DNA of 63,933 bases, filler included, from Eremomyces bilateralis CBS 781.70 (lineage: Eukaryota), in the NCBI GenBank assembly GCA_010015585.1. It is 6 parts of 6 records of this genome, joined end to end, with 100 filler letters (N's around TTAATTAATTAA, not from the genome) between each part and the next. Parts side by side here need not be neighbours in the genome. Positions count along the whole stretch, not along the records: positions 38,638 to 48,825 come from ML975212.1; 5 more parts are not named here. One strand, 5' to 3'. A program made the position numbers and the translations under genes. Positions 38,538 through 47,198 of this stretch are shown here, one piece after another; position 1 is the stretch's first letter; each line of letters starts with the position of its first letter. The notes under the pieces were generated by a model, which ran no database searches, was not told where the DNA came from, and was given only the letters and a program-made list of their open reading frames with translations.

Positions 38538-38637
38538 NNNNNNNNNNNNNNNNNNNNNNNNNNNNNNNNNNNNNNNNNNNNTTAATTAATTAANNNNNNN
38601 NNNNNNNNNNNNNNNNNNNNNNNNNNNNNNNNNNNNN

Positions 38638-38910
38638 TAGGCCTCGGATGGGTGCGGGTGGGTTGGGTTGGGGTTCTCTTGGCGTGCGGGTGGGGTGGGG
38701 TGGGGTTCTCCAAACCTGGATTCCCAACCCAACCCCACCCGCATGCCAAGCAACCCAAACCCAACCCCACCCGCAGGCAACCAGGGACAAACCCAACCCC
38801 ACCCCATGCCAAGAAACCTTGGGGGAACCGCGGGGTGGGGTTTTCTGCGGGTTCAACCCCAACCGCAAGATGGGTTGGGTTTCTTGGCGCATCTGATGGG
38901 TTTCTTGGCA
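38638..38910. repeat. Left TIR and G/C-rich subterminal repeats (GGGTGGGGTTGGG / CCCAACCCCACCC); mirrored at 45414-45676
   Basis: About 38790-38889 is a near-exact reverse complement of about 45416-45512. Confidence 0.9.
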
Positions 38911-39347
38911 TTATTAAAAGGGCTTTAGACTAGATTAGGCTAGTAGCATATAGAGAGAGAGATTCATACGCCCGTCAGGCCTCTCTGCGAGGCCCATGTG
39001 GGGAACTAGCTAGCTAGTAGCATATAGAAGATGTGGTAGTCAGATGTGGTAGTCAGATATGGTAGTTTAGTCACGCGGTATAAAATGTAAGTAGGAAGCT
39101 TTCTATTTAATTCTGGCTATAGAAGTTTATCCGGCGCATTAAGCAGGATCATTAATCTAAGAGTATACGATGCTCACTCACCCATCGTATACCCAAACCT
39201 GCGACTTGTTATTCGCCTTAACTGACAAATTGGAGAATTATAAAAACGCCATCCATTGACACCCATAACTCATGATATACGTTAAGCCATAACTAAAATA
39301 TATTAGTTTATATAATCATGGTAGGATTCAGACCTTACCTTCACGTT

Positions 39348-39889
39348 TTACTTTCGAGCGTGCTTCCTAACCGAAATGAAAGACCCGTCGCACAACCTTT
39401 CCACCAGCTCGATATCCTTCGCCTGGAGAGTTACGCGCTTGGCATGGATGGCACAGAGGTTGGAATCTACGGTGTGTTAGTTATGTGGTAGTCAGGAGGA
39501 AGTAAATAAAAACATACTCTCAAAAAGCTTTACAAGGTATGCTTCTGATGCTTCTTGGAGCGCCTCGAGCGCAGACCTCTGGAAACGATACCCTCCATCG
39601 TAATTGAAGTCACCTGAGATCTCGCGCACAAGTCGAGCAAATGGCAATTTCGGAATCAGCAGTTCGGTTGATTTTGCCAACTGCTTGATCTCTCGAAGCA
39701 CAGACACTTAGAGGTTTAGCTACTACTACACCGACTACTACACAGAAACTTACTGCCAGGACGTTTGAAGTATGCGCCAGTCTTCGTCTTCCTTACAGGC
39801 TTTCTCGAATTCGTAGACCGTTTCCTGGCTGGGGGGCGCTTTCTGCCAGGAGTGTGCTTTCCGCCGGGGGGGCGGTTTTGAGATGGCAT
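39348..39889 (-). CDS. Divergent histone H3-like protein (147 aa, 3 exons)
   Basis: Exons 39889-39754, 39706-39518 and 39466-39348 with GT-AG introns and CTAA-type branch sites. Product [147 protein letters not shown], a complete H3 histone fold. Confidence 0.93.
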
Positions 39890-40660
39890 GGTTATTCGTC
39901 GAATCGTTGGTAGAGTTATGACCGTATTGTTTGTTAGGTTTCGGTTGTAGAGAAGGCTAGGTATGGAGGAGAAAAAGGAAGGTAAAGAGAGAGGACTAGG
40001 TTGTTGGTTAGTCGACGTTGTTATGAGTAAAGGTAAGGTTTCTCACCAGGTTATCACTTCTGAAAATAATTCCAAGTCCTTTTTACCAATAACTCTGGCA
40101 AATCTTGATCGTTTTCGACCAAACGAAGTAATCTCAGCGTGGTAGTACTTGTGGTGGTCACCAAGAGCAATTTCCTCAAGATGGGAGATCTCCTAGGATA
40201 TATAAAAATTAGTAAGAAGTGAAAATTAATGTCGAAAGTGACATTCAAGTGGCTAACCGTCCTGCGAGCTTAATTCTACAAGATTTAAGCTTACTACTGC
40301 ATTCGAAGTGCGGTAGTATTCGTGGTAGTCGAGTTATGTTATAAAAGGAAGAAAAACGGGTGAGTTAACGAAAATATCGAGATTTCTAAGTGTTTTGAAT
40401 TTCTTCGTATTTCACTTCACTTATGAAAACCTAACCAAAATAAACTATCCCCCAAACAAAACCTTTACCAAAACAAAACTTTCCTCTTAATGAAACTTTC
40501 TTCCCCTTACCCTAACGCCTCCCAATCTTGATTATTTTCCATGCTAGTTACAAGATTGTAAGAGTTATTAATATTTCAAAAGTGAGAATCTCAATAACTA
40601 ACTTTCTGCTAGCTTCACCTATCCCATGATCCAGTGACCGGCAGTCTTAACGAGACGACA

Positions 40661-42090
40661 ATGACGGCTAAGCGGAAGGCGGTGGCCGATCTCTCTACCA
40701 ATGCGAATACAGCTCGCGAGCGAAAGCGTCGGGATGCCCGGGATGCAAGTCGCGTCGAATATGAGAACCGCAAAAAGGCTGATCAGACTGCGGTATCGCG
40801 CGCACGGGCAGCTATAGCGCTGTTACCAAATTTCAGGTCGAGTGGGACCGACAAGCGACAAGAGCTACTTCGTGTAGCGGTCGAACAAGTGACCAACGAA
40901 AGGTCAGTTATGTGTACCAGTCAATGTGGTAACTAGTATTTTTACTAACTAATCTAGGATTAATCGTGGAGTCCATCACTCGCTCCATCCCCTTGCGGCG
41001 GTCCCTGCGACGACTAGGACTGCGCAGGACCCAAAGTTATTTCTCAATAAGCTCTATCCCGATGCCGATAACGATAGCGATTGGGAAGATCTCCATGAAG
41101 ATATGGAAACTTCGGTCGATCAGGATTTCGAAATCCTAAACAGTATGCCCCTCCCGCCAACATTTAATTCGACGGATTTCAGGTTCTGGGCGGAATACAA
41201 GCGAACTGTTGCCAAATATGATTTCTATAATCGGATCGAATTGGGAGAATGGCGTCGCTTTACCAAACGATGGCAACGAGCACGAAAGGCGGTTCTATAT
41301 AAGAGCCGAGCTATCAACCGAGCGAGAACTTTAGACGGTCGGCTTAGCCTTGGAAAGCTATGGCTTCTGGTAGACACCGTGGAGATTTTGGTAAGTGTGG
41401 TAGTTTATGTGGTAGTCCTATACTAACCGCATTTAGCGATCGAGTGCCGAACTGCAAAGGCTGATCCGAGCAGATTGGCAATCTTTCGGCTTAAACGCCG
41501 AAGACCAAGATTGCGCAGAACTTGAGTGGATAGTTCGTAATGCCCCGGCGTTGGACGACTGGCTGTCATCTCCGGCGTTCTACTCGAAGGGTCATTTAGA
41601 TCTTCACCTCGTATGGCCGAAGCTCCCCTTCGCGATTCGATATTTTCTCGTAAGTTTAATGCGGTAGTCAGCGTGGTAGTCTCTTTTCGGCTTATTTGAC
41701 ATTTTAAATCAGAACCAGAGCGCCACTTTCTCAACGGCGCCTTTTGCGCACCAAATTTTCAAGGATCGACACGAGAGAGGCATTTTAATTGGGTTCCTCG
41801 CTTGGGCTGGTCGATACCAATATGAATTCCCCTTCCCGGCTTGCTTGTGGGATGCGCCTGATAACGATGAAAGATGGGGACTTTCTAAGATTAGCGACTC
41901 GAAGACGGCTGCCATGATGTATGATGGTTTTAAACTCGTCTTTAAACCGCCTGGGAACTGCGAAGCCCCCCCTGACGCCTACCGCATCGACTGTCCAATT
42001 GATAGAGATGCGATGATCGGAGATGGATACTTGCTATCGCTCCGCCCTAACGGTGAGCGAGGGAACGCTATTTGGAAAAGGAGGATGTGA
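40661..42090 (+). CDS. Hypothetical protein (421 aa, 4 exons), transposon cargo
   Basis: Exons 40661-40902, 40958-41390, 41437-41649 and 41713-42090 join without stops through canonical GT-AG introns. Basic helical N-terminus, acidic patch (DADNDSDWEDLHED) and Trp-rich C-terminal domain. Confidence 0.8.
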
Positions 42091-42379
42091 CAAGGCATCT
42101 AGCTATTCGATTGATAGGCTGGAACATTGACTACCACACCGACTAGTACGCCCTTCGCAGACATAGTTCTGCAGCATATGAATAACGGATTCGGGCAGAA
42201 TATGGGGGGCTGGTGGACCAGGAATTAATATACATTCTGCTTCAACCCATTTCCTGTGATGAATTGATAATATTCTATTAAGTACTTCAATCACGATAAT
42301 ACATTACTGCCATACTGACTACCACACTGACTACCACTTTTTATCATTACTTAAACCTGTCTTTTACTCTATTTCTAAG

Positions 42380-45281
42380 ATGGCCTCTTTATACACTGAT
42401 TCAGAGCCGACTGAGCCCCAGTCAAGCTTTACCGAAGCAAGGTCTGCGATCGAATCGTCCGACGGAATCGGTGTCGATGGTCTCCGGCAGTATACGATCA
42501 AAAACACGACATATTATGTTGTTGACCGAGATAACCCCGCGCCGTTTGACGATTGGTGGAAGAGAACCCAATTCTGCCTTAGGAACAAGGCTAGAGACCC
42601 TGACAAGCGGTTTAAGCCAACGTGGGATAGAAAAGTGGTTCGTTCTGATTACTGGTCCTACTTCGAAGAAATCGCCGAGTCTGCTACAGGGGTTGTTAAG
42701 ATCCATTGTATCCGCTGTGGTTTTGTTGGGGGCCACCCAGCTGTAATCACTGAGAGGCTAGACGGCAGTCTCGGATCACGTACTGGCAATTCGACAATGA
42801 AGGCGCACCTTCGGTCAGGAAATTGTATGCAGAAAGCTGATAACAAGGGCCTAACCCAGTTGACATTTCACGATATTACCGATCCAAGGCGCAAGGTAAG
42901 AGACTACTATATGAACTAGTATATACACTTTCCCTAATAGAGTTTAGGCTAGAGTTGATAGGACCCGAGCTGCCCAATTCCTTGAGGGACAACGGGTTAC
43001 CTCGAAGCATTTCTTGGATTGTCTGGCTCGAATGATTGTTTCTCGGGGTATCCCTATGAACTTCTTCGAGGATCCTGAAGTCCAGCGGTCCTATCTCTGC
43101 CTAACGACTACTGAACCACCATTTAGTAACCCAAAGAGTCTGCGGAATCGGATCTTCACTCTCTATGAATCCGCGACGAAGGCAACTCGGGATGATCTTG
43201 CCCACCCTGATAGCATCAAACAGAAAATTGGTCTCGCGGTCGATGGCTGGTCCGCAAAGTCTGGCCGTACAGGCTATCTTGGAATTCTCGCCTATTGGAC
43301 CTCGACGGACATGAAATGGCATGAGGCGCTTTTAGCGTTCACGCCAACTGAGGCTAGGCATTCCGGTCGGGACCTAGCGGAGATGATCATGCAGACACTA
43401 CTCAAGTTTCGAATTACTGACCGTCTACGCTCAATCACTGCAGACAATGCTTCGTCAAATGGCACGATGGTCGCGTCTATCAACGACGAGTTGAAATTTC
43501 TGTTGTCGTCACATGGAAGCTTAGACCCGGTCGTATCAATCCCTTGTATCTCCCATGTTATTCAGCTGGTCCAGGGAGAACTCCTCAAAGGCCTCAAGTG
43601 CGTGGCGGAGAATTCGGAGATTATCCGAAACTGGGATGAAAAGGAGTTTGTGAGGGAGCAGCGCGCAATTGCGTCGTATGGGGCGGTGCCAATTACACTT
43701 TGGAAGGTGAGTCTCTACTCCTTGTAAAATGTGGTAGTCAATGTGGTAGTCATTACTAATATAGTCTAGGCTCGACAGACCGCTAAACACATTGTGGCAT
43801 CGGAGAAACGACTGAGAGATTTTCTTAAGATCCAGCAGGAGCTTATCGACCAGGAACACCCGACCCTGGACAAACAGGAGCTCTTCTGGGTTAGCCTGCT
43901 CCGGCAACCCCTGCGTCCACTACAAGACGTCAAAACACGATGGGACTCGACTACGCAGATGCTTGTTCGACTCCGCATTCTTCGCCAACCCCTTGACCGT
44001 TACTGGCGTCAGGTTTCGAAGCAGTCGATGGCCCTCGATCCTCAACAATGGGATATCATCGAATACCTTATTGATATGACCGCTCCACTAAATGCATTTA
44101 CGCAGTCAATTGGCAGATCGTCGTCCCCATCAATCCACAGAGTCTACACGATCTACGATACTACATTCGGCCATCTTGAATCTACGATCGATAGACTTAA
44201 GAAGAAGCATGCTTCGTGGAAGATTAGCCTCAAGGAGAGCTTGGTGAATGCCGTAGAGAAGTTGAAGAAGTACTATAGCAGGACTAGTGTTTTTACAGCT
44301 CTTGATGAAGCATACGCGTTCTCTTTCCTACTCAGTCCTAGGACACGAAATACTGCTTTCACTTCATCGGCTTGGAAAGGGAGGGCTAATAACCGGGGAC
44401 AAAATTACCGAACAGTCTACATGGGGAGACTGCGGGATCATTGGGAGGAACACTACAAGGTTGACAACCCAACCCAATCAGAAGAGGGAGCAGCTTATAC
44501 ACGCGGAATTGACTATGTGCGTCAACGGTTGCATCAAGATGTTCAGCCCACCGAGGGTTCAAACTCTCGATCAATGGACGAGCTAGCAAGATATTTTGAC
44601 TCTTGTAAGTACATATTCCCCTTTATTCATACTCCGATCTCTTACTAATCTTTTAATATAGGCTCGTCAAACAATATTGAACCTCTCGAAGCTTGGCGCG
44701 AGAATGGAAACTACATAGCCTACCCAACAGTTGCTCGGATGGCTCGCGACTACCTTTGTTCTCCGGCAGCATCCGTTGGCGTCGAGCGCCTATTTTTCCT
44801 TGCTCGCTGTCAGTCAGAGTTCAATCGGGAGTATAAGAGTGAAACACTCGAGGCGATCATGGTGGCCAAGGCGAGGTTGAAGCTTGACTTTCAGATAGAA
44901 TCCGAGCGTCTCCAAGAGCTGGAGGAAGAGCTAGGTGATATCGGTGATGCTGATACGTCTACGCTAGACACACTGGTTATAGAATCGGACACTCGTAAGA
45001 GGCATACTAATAGTATCCTGCGCGCGACGGGTGAAGGGGAAATTCATTTGATCAGCGACGGTGAAGATAGTGAGGATGATGTTGAGGATGACGGGAGGGA
45101 TAGCGATCCTAATACTGGGGAAGATAGGAGGGACGCTGATCAGAGCGATGGTCTAGGGGAACCAGACGAGACACTAGATGAGTTAGGTGAAGATTACGAT
45201 ACAGCTGGAGTAGCAAAGAGGACACGAAGTAGTACTATGGCAAGTGAACCTCAAGACCGTTCGAAGCGGAATAGGTTATAG
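42380..45281 (+). CDS. hAT transposase (909 aa, 4 exons)
   Basis: Exons 42380-42895, 42948-43706, 43770-44604 and 44662-45281 splice in frame. BED-like finger (YWSYF...CIRC...MKAHL), AVDGWS, TADNAS, CISH, TRWDST and YPTVARMARDYLCSPAASVGVERLF. Confidence 0.93.
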
Positions 45282-45676
45282 ATAGGTTTTCTTCTATTAG
45301 AGTACTTTTGAATGAAATTAATTTCTTTCCCTTGACTACCACACTTGACTACCACATATGACTACTATATTTAATCCCCTATTCTATCCTACAACCGGAT
45401 CGTACCTCTAGTTATGCCAAGAAACCCAACCCATCTTGCGGTTGGGGCTAAACCCGCAGAAAACCCCACCCCGCGGTTCCCCAAGGTTTCTTGGCATGGG
45501 GTGGGGTTGGGGCGGGGTTTCTTGGCGTGCGGGTGGGGTTGGGGTGGGGTTTTGAAATATTGGCTTCCCACCCCAACCCCACCCGCAAACCGGCGGGTGG
45601 GGTTGGGTTTGGGTTTGCCAAGAACCCGCACCCAACCCGTTTTTTGCGGGTTGAACCCGCACCCATCCGAGGCCTA

Positions 45677-46096
45677 GTTGAAGGCACCGAATAAAGTAAC
45701 GAGCGCCCGTGGGCCATCGGCGGCGCCCAGTGCCGTCAACGCTGCTGCCACGACAATCTGAAGTCCCAGACATCCATTGATGAGGAAAGAAAAAATCTTA
45801 TATTGCTGTTTTGAGGTGGCTTCAGAGTTGACAATGCGTGCGTAGATTCCAATGTTTGATGCGGGTCGGCGAAAATACGCTGTGGCCGTGAGAGTCGGAG
45901 CTTCGCTGATTCCAAGGATGGTTCGGAACGCCGTGAGTTTGTCGGTGTGAGGGATCAAACGAGATCGTTCCCTTCCCAAAGGTGCGCTGTGTTCGGCAGG
46001 CCTGCTTTCGTTTCCGTCTCCTGTTCCCGTATCGTCCTCTGCAGCAGTTGAGAGGGGGCCTGGATCTTGGCTTTCAATATCATTGCGAGTAAACAT
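45677..46096 (-). pseudogene. SLATT-like (fungal 2TM) membrane protein gene truncated by the hAT insertion
   Basis: ...YKIFSFLINGCLGLQIVVAAALTALGAADGPRALVTLFGAFN runs directly into the TIR-supplied TAG. The pattern matches the fungal SLATT two-TM domain as recalled, not searched. Confidence 0.65.
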
Positions 46097-47198
46097 TGAG
46101 CTCAAAGCAGCTCTGCTTCGTGCAAGAGTTTAGTGGACTGTTGGGCTTCGCATAGGCTTCCACCTCAAGGTTTTGGCGCATCTGAAGCGGTTCTTTGGAT
46201 AAAACCTTTCCTTTCCTCCTTTGACTTGGGGATCAATCCCTTTTGAAATAACAACAAGCCCTTCAGCTCACCATTGCTCAACCGTGCATGTTCATGTTCA
46301 TTTCGGGAAGGATCATCAATACAGTGCCGGGACCCCATGTCATTTTCTGTTCATCGGTCTGGGTCGTTGCATACGATTGGCGATGGAATTATTACTTGAG
46401 CAGGCCGAGGCGAGCTACAACTCGAATGAGAAACCTTTGAACCCTTGCGGTCTACCAGTTCTGAAATAAGTATTGCTGTCGCATTAGCGTGCGGGTGACA
46501 GGGTGTATAAGCCCCACAACCTCTTTTATGGCGGCTCCGTCCGGGGCTAGGACCCTAAGCGAACCCCCTGCCACCCGGAAGGGGGGGGAATGTGCTTGTA
46601 TGTGCCCTCTACGTCCAGTAGTTTGATTGGACTAAGAAACTATTGATATGGATCATGAGATACTAAATGCTTATGAATTCTCAAGATCTTCATGGGCGAG
46701 ACGTCCTCGAGCCGGGACGATATCTGAAGACAAAACATCGTTATCGAACGACACCCTACTTCGCAGAGAAAGGCTAGAGGCATGCTCTACCCAGCACACC
46801 TTTTCGTATTTATTGCCAGACAAATCTGACGCTCTTTGGATCAACCTTTCGAACCGGAGATGCACCATAACTAATGTTGGTATACCCGCACCACACGCCC
46901 AATATTGTTCCATATATTGGGCGCTGGCCACCCCAAAGTACATACCACCCCAACATACACAGAATGATCCAGCGAAAGGAGATTTGCCATTTAACGCCCA
47001 AGATAAAGAATTTGCATACTAATTAATAATAGAATCATTGCAAAGCCATCGAAACTACTAATCCCTCGTGCTAAAGTAAATTTAGATCGCGTTGGGCGGG
47101 TTTTGCATTACTCTGAAGTTCCACCCTCCACGGAATGAAAGTGGTATCACTAACTTCAATCTCTAAAAACACAAGATGTCGCCAGAAGAATATACGAA

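What the first reader, a model, noticed from the sequence alone, without database searches (positions are those of the whole stretch)
39031..45368. Private TGTGGTAGTCA motif stamped into the introns and spacers of the H3-hAT element
Seen: an ~11-13-nt motif, usually in tandem pairs or triplets and in either orientation. It occurs at 39031-39069, 39483 (H3 intron 2), 39721-39743 (H3 intron 1), 40138-40160, 40308-40331, 40924, 41395-41418 and 41660-41682 (all three cargo-gene introns). It also occurs at 42128, 42317-42338, 42902 (degenerate), 43729-43752 (transposase introns) and 45333-45368. That is 7 of 8 coding-region introns. I did not notice it in exons or elsewhere in the window. Inference: an element-wide cis code such as a binding site for an element-encoded protein, a nucleosome/histone-loading signal or a splicing regulator. 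It also argues that the cargo genes co-evolved with the transposase rather than being recent captures.
Basis: seen in the sequence. Interest (0 to 1): 0.75.

Follow-up and report, generated by a model that had tools for sequence, protein, structure and literature searches.

The report
Private repeated word across fungal transposon
A three-gene jumping gene of a fungus carries about two dozen copies of its own private 11-letter word in nearly every non-coding pocket, and related elements use other words in the same layout, which looks like docking sites for one of the element's own proteins.

Summary
TGTGGTAGTCA (1 mismatch allowed) occurs 13 times in the window, all inside a 7,039-bp hAT transposon (38638-45676); shuffles give 0.69. 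A weight-matrix scan finds 22 sites in the element and 1 in the other 57 kb. None lies in the 4,440 nt of coding exons.

The sites are direct tandem pairs or triples with a 12-13-nt period. They sit in 5 of 8 coding introns (2 more are degenerate), in leaders, and in both 3' trailers. Spliced contigs of one public run confirm all 8 coding introns and show 4 UTR introns that lack the word.

The element belongs to the published histone-H3-like hAT family. Relatives keep the layout but use other words: TGTGATAA in a metagenome relative and the Pyrenophora consensus, TAGTCGGC and TAGCCGGC in other published consensus sequences.

Best reading (about 0.55): docking sites for an element-encoded DNA-binding protein. 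I favour the fast-evolving 421-aa protein, as in the plant VANC/VANDAL anti-silencing system, over the transposase. No binding was tested.

The two family papers do not mention such a motif. This scan noted the same design earlier on other genomes (e1-7558808, e1-7559177).

The parts
38638..45676 (.). Whole hAT transposon (7,039 bp) carrying an H3-like gene, a 421-aa gene and the transposase
   Evidence: Perfect 22-nt terminal inverted repeats at 38638-38659 and 45655-45676 (pair I12). hAT dimerisation domain PF05699, E 1.8e-09, and Histone PF00125. A contig of run X3 leaves the sequence exactly at 45676 (table 7). The left end abuts an assembly gap at 38539-38637.
38638..38920 (.). Left terminal repeat plus G-rich subterminal array (GGGTGGGG / GGGTTGGG words, 32-nt period). 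This is a second, separate repeat class.
   Evidence: The same kind of array is seen at the end of L001 and, by eye, in published consensus sequences.
45400..45676 (.). Right G-rich subterminal array plus terminal repeat
39031..39068 (+). Triple array of the word, period 13, in the 3' trailer of the H3-like gene, 393 bp from the left tip
   Evidence: Inverted partner of 45333-45370 (pairs I8 and I11). Lies inside RNA contig record 17.
39348..39889 (-). H3-like gene, 147 aa. Coding exons 39889-39754, 39706-39518, 39466-39348. Introns 39707-39753 and 39467-39517.
   Evidence: Gene model. Both introns confirmed by spliced contigs. Pfam Histone hits.
39472..39494 (+). Word (perfect copy at 39483, weak copy at 39472) in H3-like intron 2; antisense to the gene
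39720..39743 (-). Variant pair (GTGTAGTAGTCG, GTGTAGTAGTAG), period 12, in H3-like intron 1; sense to the gene
40137..40160 (+). Pair, period 12, in a 5'UTR exon of the H3-like gene (between UTR introns 39996-40046 and 40192-40256)
40308..40331 (+). Pair, period 12, in the divergent leader and promoter region between the H3-like gene and the 421-aa gene
   Evidence: One RNA contig runs through this region.
40661..42090 (+). 421-aa gene of unknown family. Exons 40661-40902, 40958-41390, 41437-41649, 41713-42090.
   Evidence: Gene model. Three introns confirmed. An identical 421-aa protein, P0152, is on record. No Pfam family at E up to 1.
40910..40935 (+). Degenerate copy or copies in intron 1 of the 421-aa gene (score 7.1 at 40924)
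41395..41418 (+). Pair, period 12, filling intron 2 of the 421-aa gene from the donor site to the branch site
41659..41682 (+). Pair, period 12, in intron 3 of the 421-aa gene
42128..42151 (-). Perfect copy plus a degenerate neighbour, in the trailer of the 421-aa gene
42316..42339 (-). Pair, period 12, lying 41-64 nt upstream of the transposase ATG (leader or promoter)
42380..45281 (+). hAT transposase, 909 aa. Exons 42380-42895, 42948-43706, 43770-44604, 44662-45281.
   Evidence: Gene model. Three introns confirmed. PF05699 hit. 2,209 relatives at E up to 0.001. C110, C113 and H143 align with the zinc-finger residues of relatives.
42901..42924 (-). Degenerate copy or copies in transposase intron 1 (score 10.0)
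43729..43752 (+). Perfect pair, period 12, in transposase intron 2. This intron position is shared with relatives.
   Evidence: The homologous intron of L001 holds that lineage's pair. Read-through peptides of relatives fit the word.
45333..45370 (-). Triple array, period 13, in the transposase 3' trailer, 306 bp from the right tip
   Evidence: Lies inside RNA contig record 18.

Best explanation
The word is a self-recognition label on the DNA. It is a set of docking sites, always written as head-to-tail pairs or triples 12-13 nt apart, for a sequence-specific DNA-binding protein that the transposon itself encodes. The sites occupy every place where coding does not forbid them: introns, leaders and trailers.

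My preferred reader is the fast-evolving 421-aa middle protein. It would act like the VANC proteins of plant VANDAL transposons. VANC binds a family-private 9-nt word that is piled up as tandem repeats in introns, intergenic parts and terminal non-coding parts of its own element, and so keeps the copies expressed. The conserved transposase would then read the conserved G-rich subterminal arrays.

The second candidate reader is the transposase's N-terminal CCHC finger region. In that case the inner sites would serve as extra subterminal repeats, helping to assemble the ends or feeding back on the three genes.

Shown: the sites, their confinement to this element, their fixed spacing, their presence in transcribed but non-coding DNA, the same layout with other words in relatives, and expression of all three genes. 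Inferred: that a protein binds them, which protein it is, and what binding does.
For: (1) Private and far above chance. 13 of 13 matches lie in the element, against 0.69 expected. 22 matrix sites lie inside and 1 lies in the other 57 kb.

(2) Non-coding only. 0 of 22 sites lie in the 63% of the element that codes. Under uniform placement, P is about 3e-10 by site and 1.7e-05 by the 11 clusters.

(3) Fixed architecture. Of the 11 clusters scoring 11.3 or more, 7 are direct pairs (6 with period 12, one with period 11), 2 are triples with period 13, and 2 are single at that cut-off, each with a weaker or degenerate neighbour.

(4) Both orientations occur relative to transcription. H3-like intron 1 differs from intron 2, and transposase intron 2 differs from its leader and trailer. 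That fits recognition of double-stranded DNA.

(5) Same design, other word, in relatives. L001 has a transposase 35% identical to this one. It carries 5 pairs of TTATCACA/TGTGATAA, all at period 13. They lie in an upstream-gene intron, the transposase leader, the homologous transposase intron, a lineage-specific intron and the trailer. There are 15 matches against 3.36 expected, reached by 0 of 200 shuffles.

(6) Published consensus sequences. In the supplement of PMC6710886 the Pyrenophora consensus shows the TGTGATAA word as pairs in introns, leaders and a trailer (by eye). The Cercospora zeae-maydis and Sphaerulina consensus sequences show TAGTCGGC-type pairs and triples. The Pseudocercospora fijiensis consensus shows TAGCCGGC-type arrays of 2-11 units. 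Counts in the 45-kb file are TGTGATAA plus its complement 14, TAGCCGGC plus complement 36, and TAGTCGGC plus complement 39. This window's word, GGTAGTC plus complement, occurs 8 times, which is chance level.

(7) Closer relatives probably keep this very word. Twelve relatives have a called protein that reads into the intron behind the shared exon end. In 4 of these 12, the read-through peptide fits RTGGTAGT. That is 7 hits in 206 residues against 90 in 45,293 body residues, Fisher P 3e-07. I wrote the pattern after seeing the tails.

(8) Two repeat classes match two proteins. The G-rich subterminal arrays and the transposase are conserved between lineages: N-terminal region E 3e-10, catalytic part E 3e-22. 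The inner word and the middle protein are not. L001's upstream ORF piece shows no similarity to the 421-aa protein (best E 2.7). The 421-aa protein's 144-aa second exon (the query), searched against longer proteins only, found only the protein itself.

(9) Precedent. VANC21 binds YAGTATTAY in introns, intergenic and terminal non-coding regions of VANDAL21, often as tandem repeats, and related families have other words (PMC5735166, passages read).

(10) The element is expressed and probably multi-copy.
Against: No binding experiment or model exists. The 421-aa protein has no recognisable DNA-binding domain: no Pfam family at E up to 1, and the Atlas model has mean pLDDT 0.39. Its basic N-terminus is only suggestive.

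The claim that the middle protein evolves faster rests on 65 residues of L001. It also assumes that the two upstream ORFs correspond.

The transposase finger is not matched by the Pfam zf-BED model, and fold searches gave no clear match.

In the Pyrenophora consensus all 6 introns that I read carry the word in the same sense relative to the gene (by eye). That could hint at an RNA-level or descent-related cause.

Nothing is known here about silencing in this fungus.

Homologous DNA available to the tools was one 4.2-kb contig. The published consensus sequences could be read only by eye and by word counts.
Confidence: 0.55

Rival explanations
1. The sites bind the transposase itself through its N-terminal CCHC (BED-like) finger. 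The two trailer triples would be the true subterminal repeats. The inner pairs would be extra copies that help a multimeric transposase gather the ends of a long element, or that let it feed back on the three genes. This is a sub-case of the best explanation with a different reader.
For: The trailer triples form an inverted pair 393 and 306 bp from the tips (pairs I8 and I11). hAT transposases read short subterminal repeats with BED fingers, and Hermes has 17 and 14 such sites (PMC10368747, passages read). C110, C113 and H143 of this transposase align with the fingers of relatives, two of which pass the Pfam zf-BED cut-off. BEAF's BED finger reads clusters of CGATA (PMC5021357, passage read). 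The core shared by this element and L001 is TGYGRTA.
Against: The finger region is conserved between lineages whose words differ. A second, conserved repeat class already fills the outer 280 bp of both ends. Most sites lie 0.8-3.5 kb from the nearest tip, unlike known subterminal repeats. The zf-BED model does not hit this protein.
Confidence: 0.2
2. The sites are binding sites for a host transcription factor. They would be promoter and intragenic enhancer modules that drive the three genes together.
For: Pairs lie in the divergent leader region (40137-40331) and 41-64 nt upstream of the transposase ATG. All three genes are expressed. The Pyrenophora and L001 word contains TGATAA, which resembles a GATA-factor site; the GATA-site consensus is recalled, not from a call.
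Against: There is no copy with up to 1 mismatch in 57 kb of host DNA with its promoters. The word differs between element lineages, even between published consensus sequences that share the rest of the design. This element's word contains no GATA core.
Confidence: 0.12
3. The word acts in RNA. It could be a splicing or retention signal in introns. Alternatively, intron copies could pair with the opposite-sense copies in the leader or trailer of the same pre-mRNA, marking unspliced transcripts.
For: All sites are transcribed. Each of the three transcripts holds both orientations, so 22-24-nt duplexes are possible; for example, intron 2 and the leader of the transposase match at 22 of 24 positions when I read. 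In the Pyrenophora consensus all 6 introns read by eye carry the word in one sense, and the two terminal trailers carry the other.
Against: In this element the introns carry both orientations: 5 one way and 2 the other, counting degenerate copies. If the words are aligned on their shared core, the preferred sense is opposite in Pyrenophora and L001. The four UTR introns lack the word while UTR exons have it. The words of other lineages share no splice-signal likeness.
Confidence: 0.08
4. There is no function. The arrays would be small minisatellites, or remains of introns copied from one another, that drift within the element.
For: Array length varies: 2-3 units here and up to 7-11 units in the P. 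fijiensis consensus (by eye). Lineage-specific introns also carry the word.
Against: The homologous intron keeps a pair across transposases only 35% identical. The period is fixed. Sites occur in every class of non-coding DNA, not only introns. Outside the word, the introns of this element are not alike.
Confidence: 0.05

Closest known systems
hAT transposons carrying a histone H3-like gene and a central ORF (Pyrenophora tritici-repentis, Manning et al. 2013, PMC3538342; Pseudocercospora, Cercospora and Sphaerulina, Dhillon et al. 2019, PMC6710886)
   Same: Same three-gene content: hAT transposase, middle ORF and spliced H3-like gene. G-rich subterminal arrays of the same kind. The last 9 nt of the element equal the end of the Sphaerulina musiva consensus (by eye). 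Tandem word pairs occur in introns, leaders and trailers of the published consensus sequences.
   Different: The word itself is private to this lineage; GGTAGTC plus its complement is at chance level in the seven published consensus sequences. Neither paper describes any such motif. 'motif' and 'binding site' occur 0 times in the main text of PMC6710886. The 2 uses of 'motif' in PMC3538342 appeared in none of the passages on the element except for its boxed features.
VANC anti-silencing proteins and their target words in Arabidopsis VANDAL (Mutator-like) transposons (Hosaka et al. 2017, PMC5735166, passages read)
   Same: A multi-gene DNA transposon. A short family-private word is concentrated in introns, intergenic and terminal non-coding regions and is often tandemly repeated. 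Related families have different words.
   Different: Different superfamily (hAT, not MULE) and different kingdom. The 421-aa protein shows no family match, so it is not a VANC homologue by any test run here. Binding and anti-silencing are not shown. Here the repeat is a strict pair or triple with a 12-13-nt period.
Subterminal repeats of hAT elements read by the transposase BED finger (Hermes, PMC10368747, passages read)
   Same: Short repeated words in both ends, in inverted orientation between the ends, in a hAT element whose transposase has a CCHC finger at the usual place.
   Different: Known subterminal repeats crowd the first tens to about 300 bp. Here the word starts 306-393 bp from the tips and runs through the whole 7 kb, including introns. 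Another repeat class occupies the true subterminal zone.
BEAF-32 BED finger binding clusters of CGATA (PMC5021357, passage read)
   Same: A BED-finger protein reads clusters of a 5-nt core with flexible arrangement. The core shared by this element and L001 (TGYGRTA) resembles YGATA.
   Different: BEAF-32 is a host insulator protein of flies. The likeness of the cores is by eye only.
En/Spm TnpA 12-bp subterminal motifs and the internal enhancer of phage Mu (both recalled, not checked in a paper here)
   Same: An accessory element protein, or the transposase, binds repeated words or an inner site to bring the ends together and to regulate the element's promoter.
   Different: Those sites are subterminal (En/Spm) or a single inner block (Mu). 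They are not spread through introns of all the genes.

Membership tests
hAT superfamily transposon | hAT C-terminal dimerisation domain in the transposase | tested here: met
   PF05699, E 1.8e-09, 37.7 bits against a cut-off of 21.4, on exon 4
hAT superfamily transposon | Short terminal inverted repeats | tested here: met
   22-nt perfect repeats at 38638-38659 and 45655-45676
hAT superfamily transposon | 8-bp target site duplication | not testable with these tools
   The left flank is an assembly gap of N (38539-38637) and no whole genome is held
hAT superfamily transposon | N-terminal BED-type zinc finger | tested here: inconclusive
   No zf-BED hit at E up to 1. C110, C113 and H143 align with the fingers of relatives, of which P0050 and P0039 pass the zf-BED cut-off. 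AlphaFold model pLDDT 77.5. Hermes BED chain 8eb5_A reaches only Z 3.1 over 63 residues, and Foldseek gives nothing at E up to 0.001.
H3-like-carrying hAT family (Manning 2013; Dhillon 2019) | H3-like gene inside the terminal repeats together with the hAT transposase and a middle ORF | tested here: met
   Histone PF00125 hits on two exons. Gene models. All introns confirmed by spliced contigs. Published layout in PMC3538342.
H3-like-carrying hAT family (Manning 2013; Dhillon 2019) | Sequence relatedness of ends and transposase to published members | tested here: inconclusive
   By eye only: G-rich arrays as in the Pyrenophora consensus, and a shared 9-nt terminus with the Sphaerulina musiva consensus. 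L001, which carries the Pyrenophora-type word, has a transposase 35% identical. No alignment with the published sequences could be run.
hAT subterminal repeats (transposase-binding) | Copies concentrated within about 300 bp of both tips | tested here: not met
   The nearest copies are 393 and 306 bp from the tips. 16 of the 22 sites lie further inside, up to 3.5 kb from a tip.
hAT subterminal repeats (transposase-binding) | Bound by the transposase | not testable with these tools
   Needs EMSA, DAP-seq or ChIP
VANC-type self-recognition and anti-silencing system | Family-private short word enriched in introns, intergenic and terminal non-coding DNA of the element, often tandem, differing between related families | tested here: met
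   for this element. for other lineages. Criteria taken from PMC5735166.
VANC-type self-recognition and anti-silencing system | Accessory protein homologous to VANC | tested here: inconclusive
   The 421-aa protein matches no Pfam family at E up to 1. No VANC sequence was compared directly.
VANC-type self-recognition and anti-silencing system | Protein binds the word and removes silencing marks | not testable with these tools
   Needs binding assays and chromatin or methylation profiling
Introner-like elements (multiplied near-identical introns; recalled from van der Burgt et al. 2012, not read here) | Whole introns near-identical to one another and spread through unrelated host genes | tested here: not met
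   The introns share only the word. The word also lies in UTR exons and promoter DNA. No copy lies in the other 57 kb of the window. The genome-wide test was not possible.

The most novel reading that the evidence does not exclude
This would be a fungal counterpart of the plant VANC system, in another transposon superfamily. The fast-evolving 421-aa protein would read the element's private word at roughly 0.2-0.8-kb intervals along the whole element. Possibly together with the element's own H3 variant, it would set up a private chromatin state that keeps all copies of this lineage, and only this lineage, expressed and mobile. The introns would be kept, or even gained, as the only berths for the word inside long coding regions.
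Probability: 0.25. Interest if true: 0.85.

Novelty: new variant of a known kind. Interest (0 to 1): 0.62.

Why it matters
The histone-carrying hAT elements are known as a curiosity of gene capture. Nobody has explained why they keep three genes together, or what the middle gene and the histone are for. A conserved, lineage-private word stamped into every non-coding pocket gives a concrete handle. It predicts a reader protein, gives the probe sequence for EMSA or DAP-seq, and predicts that readers and words are interchangeable only within a lineage.

It would also link it to a transposon-encoded histone.

It also bears on intron biology. Here short introns appear to be held under selection for their DNA content, not only for splicing.

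Tried and rejected
Genome-wide enrichment could not be run because no whole genome is held.

Protein word searches gave nothing useful. Transposase exon 3 against longer proteins found none. Transposase exon 2 against proteins of near length found none. Exon 2 of the 421-aa protein found only the protein itself.

Related loci: none in viral contigs and none in prokaryote genomes. Only one was found in metagenomes.

The look-up of sequencing runs listed no holder on record as RNA. Run X3 nevertheless gave spliced contigs.

Fold search for a BED finger gave no clear match.

ESM Atlas gave no lead for the 421-aa protein; the best feature score was 0.77 and TM scores were under 0.35.

Supplements of PMC3538342: 0 occurrences of the words in the 12 of 31 files that were searched. 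The other 19 files were not searched and could hold element sequences.

Ideas dropped:
- The 'gactat' recombination point reported for the short Pyrenophora form is not part of that lineage's word.
- A mirror rule, with left-half sites on one strand and right-half sites on the other, fits 11 of 13 clusters here. It fails in L001 and in the Pyrenophora consensus.
- A GATA-factor site fits the TGTGATAA word only.
- A decoy 5' splice site (GGTAGT) does not fit the other lineages' words.

Literature: the exact word and its 9-mers occur only as primers or unrelated strings among the 15 top papers listed of the 569 that hold them.

The search of earlier findings by sequence or by relatives found nothing, and a second word search found nothing.

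Full report
**What is there**

The 11-letter word TGTGGTAGTCA, allowing one mismatch, occurs 13 times in the 63.9-kb window. All 13 lie between 39032 and 45356. Shuffled sequence gives 0.69 on average and never more than 3. The 8-letter core GTGGTAGT occurs 17 times, 15 of them in this stretch.

I built a 12-column weight matrix from the element's own 18 GGTAGT sites, so scores inside the element are partly circular. It lists 22 sites scoring 11.3 or more in the element and one outside (33339, score 11.3).

The sites are almost always head-to-tail. Six pairs have a 12-nt period, one has 11, and the two triples have 13.

**The element**

The sites lie in a 7,039-bp hAT transposon bounded by perfect 22-nt inverted repeats at 38638-38659 and 45655-45676 (pair I12).

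- The left tip abuts an assembly gap.
- At the right tip, a contig of run X3 leaves the sequence exactly at 45676.
- The outer 280 bp of both ends are filled by a different, G-rich repeat class with a 32-nt period.

Three genes lie inside:

- An H3-like gene on the minus strand, 147 aa. Pfam Histone matches two of its exons.
- A 421-aa gene without any family match.
- A 909-aa transposase with the hAT dimerisation domain.

An identical 421-aa protein is on record as hypothetical protein P152DRAFT_463103 of Eremomyces bilateralis CBS 781.70.

**Transcripts**

Contigs of run X3 are spliced.

- They remove all 8 predicted coding introns at the predicted borders.
- They show four more introns in UTRs: 39293-39338, 39996-40046, 40192-40256 and 40558-40612.
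- The RNA contigs run through both terminal triples and through the pair at 40137-40160. These copies are therefore in UTR exons, not in introns.
- One RNA contig joins the H3-like gene and the 421-aa gene, so their 5' ends abut or overlap between 40257 and 40557.

The depth of element contigs is about five to six times that of the flank in the two DNA runs (883.6 against 173.6, and about 1,200 against 206.7). The tool warns that depth is no copy number. Still, together with the second junction and the assembly gap, it fits a multi-copy element. Run X4, labelled as another organism, holds pieces that are 99-100% identical (17 of 18).

**Where the word sits**

None of the 22 sites lies in the 4,440 nt of coding exons. 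Under uniform placement, P is about 3e-10 by site and 1.7e-05 by the 11 clusters.

- Of the 8 coding introns, 5 carry strong copies, 2 carry degenerate copies and 1 carries none.
- Of the 4 UTR introns, none carries a copy. In UTR regions the word sits in the exonic parts instead.
- Clusters follow each other at about 170-830 nt, with one gap of 1.6 kb.
- Both orientations occur relative to transcription.

The pattern is therefore 'every stretch where coding allows it', not 'introns as such'. That speaks for a signal read on DNA.

**Relatives**

A full HMMER scan with transposase exon 2 found 2,209 relatives at E up to 0.001. The best is 57% identical. With an alignment of the top hits, one metagenome contig was recovered: L001, 4,163 bp, 35% identity.

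In L001 the most frequent 8-mer is TGTGATAA/TTATCACA. It forms five pairs, all at a 13-nt period (15 matches against 3.36 expected; 0 of 200 shuffles reach that). The pairs lie in:

- an intron of the upstream gene,
- the transposase leader,
- the intron homologous to transposase intron 2 here,
- a lineage-specific intron,
- the trailer, which is followed by the same kind of C/G-rich subterminal array.

**Published family**

Earlier notes of this scan pointed me to the published H3-like hAT family. Manning et al. 2013 describe the 5.6-kb Pyrenophora element with a transposase, a central ORF and H3L (PMC3538342, passages read). Dhillon et al. 2019 describe relatives in Pseudocercospora, Cercospora and Sphaerulina (PMC6710886; outline and passages read).

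The supplement of the second paper holds seven consensus sequences. I read parts 1, 4 and 5 by eye.

- The Pyrenophora consensus carries TGTGATAA-type pairs at a 13-nt period in two transposase introns, three central-ORF introns, the H3L intron, leaders and the H3L trailer.
- The Cercospora zeae-maydis consensus carries TAGTCGGC-type pairs and triples.
- The P. fijiensis consensus carries TAGCCGGC-type arrays of 2 to 11 units.

Word counts in the 45-kb file are 14, 39 and 36 for these three words with their complements. This window's GGTAGTC with its complement occurs 8 times, which is about chance.

The intron at the same place of the H3-like gene, just after the R-P/A-G codons, holds each lineage's own word in all four lineages.

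Neither paper mentions such a motif ('motif' and 'binding site' each occur 0 times in PMC6710886).

**Closer relatives**

In 12 of the 150 listed relatives, the called protein reads a few residues into the intron behind the shared exon end (...TLWK|V). Four further pattern matches were dropped because their tails exceeded 60 residues. In 4 of the 12 tails (P0004, P0006, P0009, P0011) the peptide fits RTGGTAGT read in an open frame. That is 7 hits in 206 residues against 90 in 45,293 residues of protein bodies, Fisher P 3e-07. I wrote the pattern after I had seen the tails, so this is supporting evidence only.

**Who reads it**

The layout is constant and the word is lineage-private. It is not what one expects from a host factor.

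Two repeat classes face two kinds of protein.

- The G-rich terminal arrays and the transposase are conserved between this element and L001 or Pyrenophora. The N-terminal region around the CCHC finger aligns at E 3e-10, and the catalytic part at E 3e-22.
- The inner word and the middle protein are not conserved. The 65-residue piece of L001's upstream ORF shows no similarity to the 421-aa protein. A search with the 421-aa protein's second exon found only the protein itself.

I therefore favour the middle protein as reader and the transposase as second choice.

The transposase finger aligns with zf-BED fingers of relatives. However, Pfam does not hit it, and the fold searches on an AlphaFold model (pLDDT 77.5) were inconclusive: Hermes BED reached Z 3.1.

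**Closest mechanism known**

VANC21 of Arabidopsis VANDAL21 binds YAGTATTAY. That word is concentrated in introns, intergenic and terminal non-coding regions of its own family, often as tandem repeats. Related families use other words. Binding removes DNA methylation and de-represses the element (PMC5735166, passages read).

The present family shows the same cis anatomy in another superfamily and another kingdom. The protein side is untested, and no homology to VANC was found.

Classical hAT subterminal repeats (Hermes, PMC10368747) share the end-proximal inverted arrays but not the element-wide spread.

**Verdict**

It belongs to a known transposon family, but the motif system itself is not in the two family papers. 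This scan noted it before on other genomes (e1-7558808, e1-7559177, e1-7555689).

I put 0.55 on 'docking sites of an element-encoded DNA-binding protein', split roughly 0.35 for the middle protein and 0.2 for the transposase. The rest goes to a host factor, an RNA-level role, or no function.

Noticed in passing
window 38940-39028: A segment at about 38953-39003 inside the left trailer has a contig depth of about 12,800 against about 880 for the rest of the element. Many contigs leave the sequence at its borders. It is flanked by a 15-nt direct repeat (38940-38954 and 39014-39028, read). It looks like a very high-copy small insert inside the transposon.
   Followed up: no
window 38539-38637: A run of N with a TTAATTAATTAA linker abuts the left terminal repeat exactly. 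The assembly broke at the repeat, so the left target-site duplication cannot be read.
   Followed up: partly
window 39293-39338, 39996-40046, 40192-40256, 40558-40612: Four UTR introns are supported by spliced contigs, including an intron in the 3'UTR of the H3-like gene. One RNA contig joins the divergent H3-like and 421-aa transcripts, so their 5' ends abut or overlap.
   Followed up: partly
window 38638-38920 and 45400-45676; L001 4081-4163: A second repeat class (G-rich words, 32-nt period, with GCCAAGAAAC) fills both subterminal zones. It recurs in L001 and, by eye, in the published Pyrenophora, P. eumusae and Sphaerulina consensus sequences. It is a likely transposase-binding array.
   Followed up: partly
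runs X1-X4 on window 38638-46176: Run X4, labelled as a different organism from X1-X3, holds low-depth pieces of the element that are 99-100% identical (17 of 18). This means either the same species under another label or a very recent shared or transferred element.
   Followed up: no
window 39348-39889; supplement of PMC6710886: The H3-like genes of this element and of three published consensus sequences have an intron at the same place, after the R-P/A-G codons. The 2019 paper inferred capture of an intron-less H3 transcript. The family's own introns seem not to have been considered there.
   Followed up: partly
L001 1885-1892; Pyrenophora consensus: One exact single copy of the TGTGATAA word lies inside the transposase coding exon at the corresponding place in both L001 and the Pyrenophora consensus. 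It may be coding coincidence or a tolerated exonic site.
   Followed up: no
That would be a second element with a private repeated word in the same genome.
   Followed up: no
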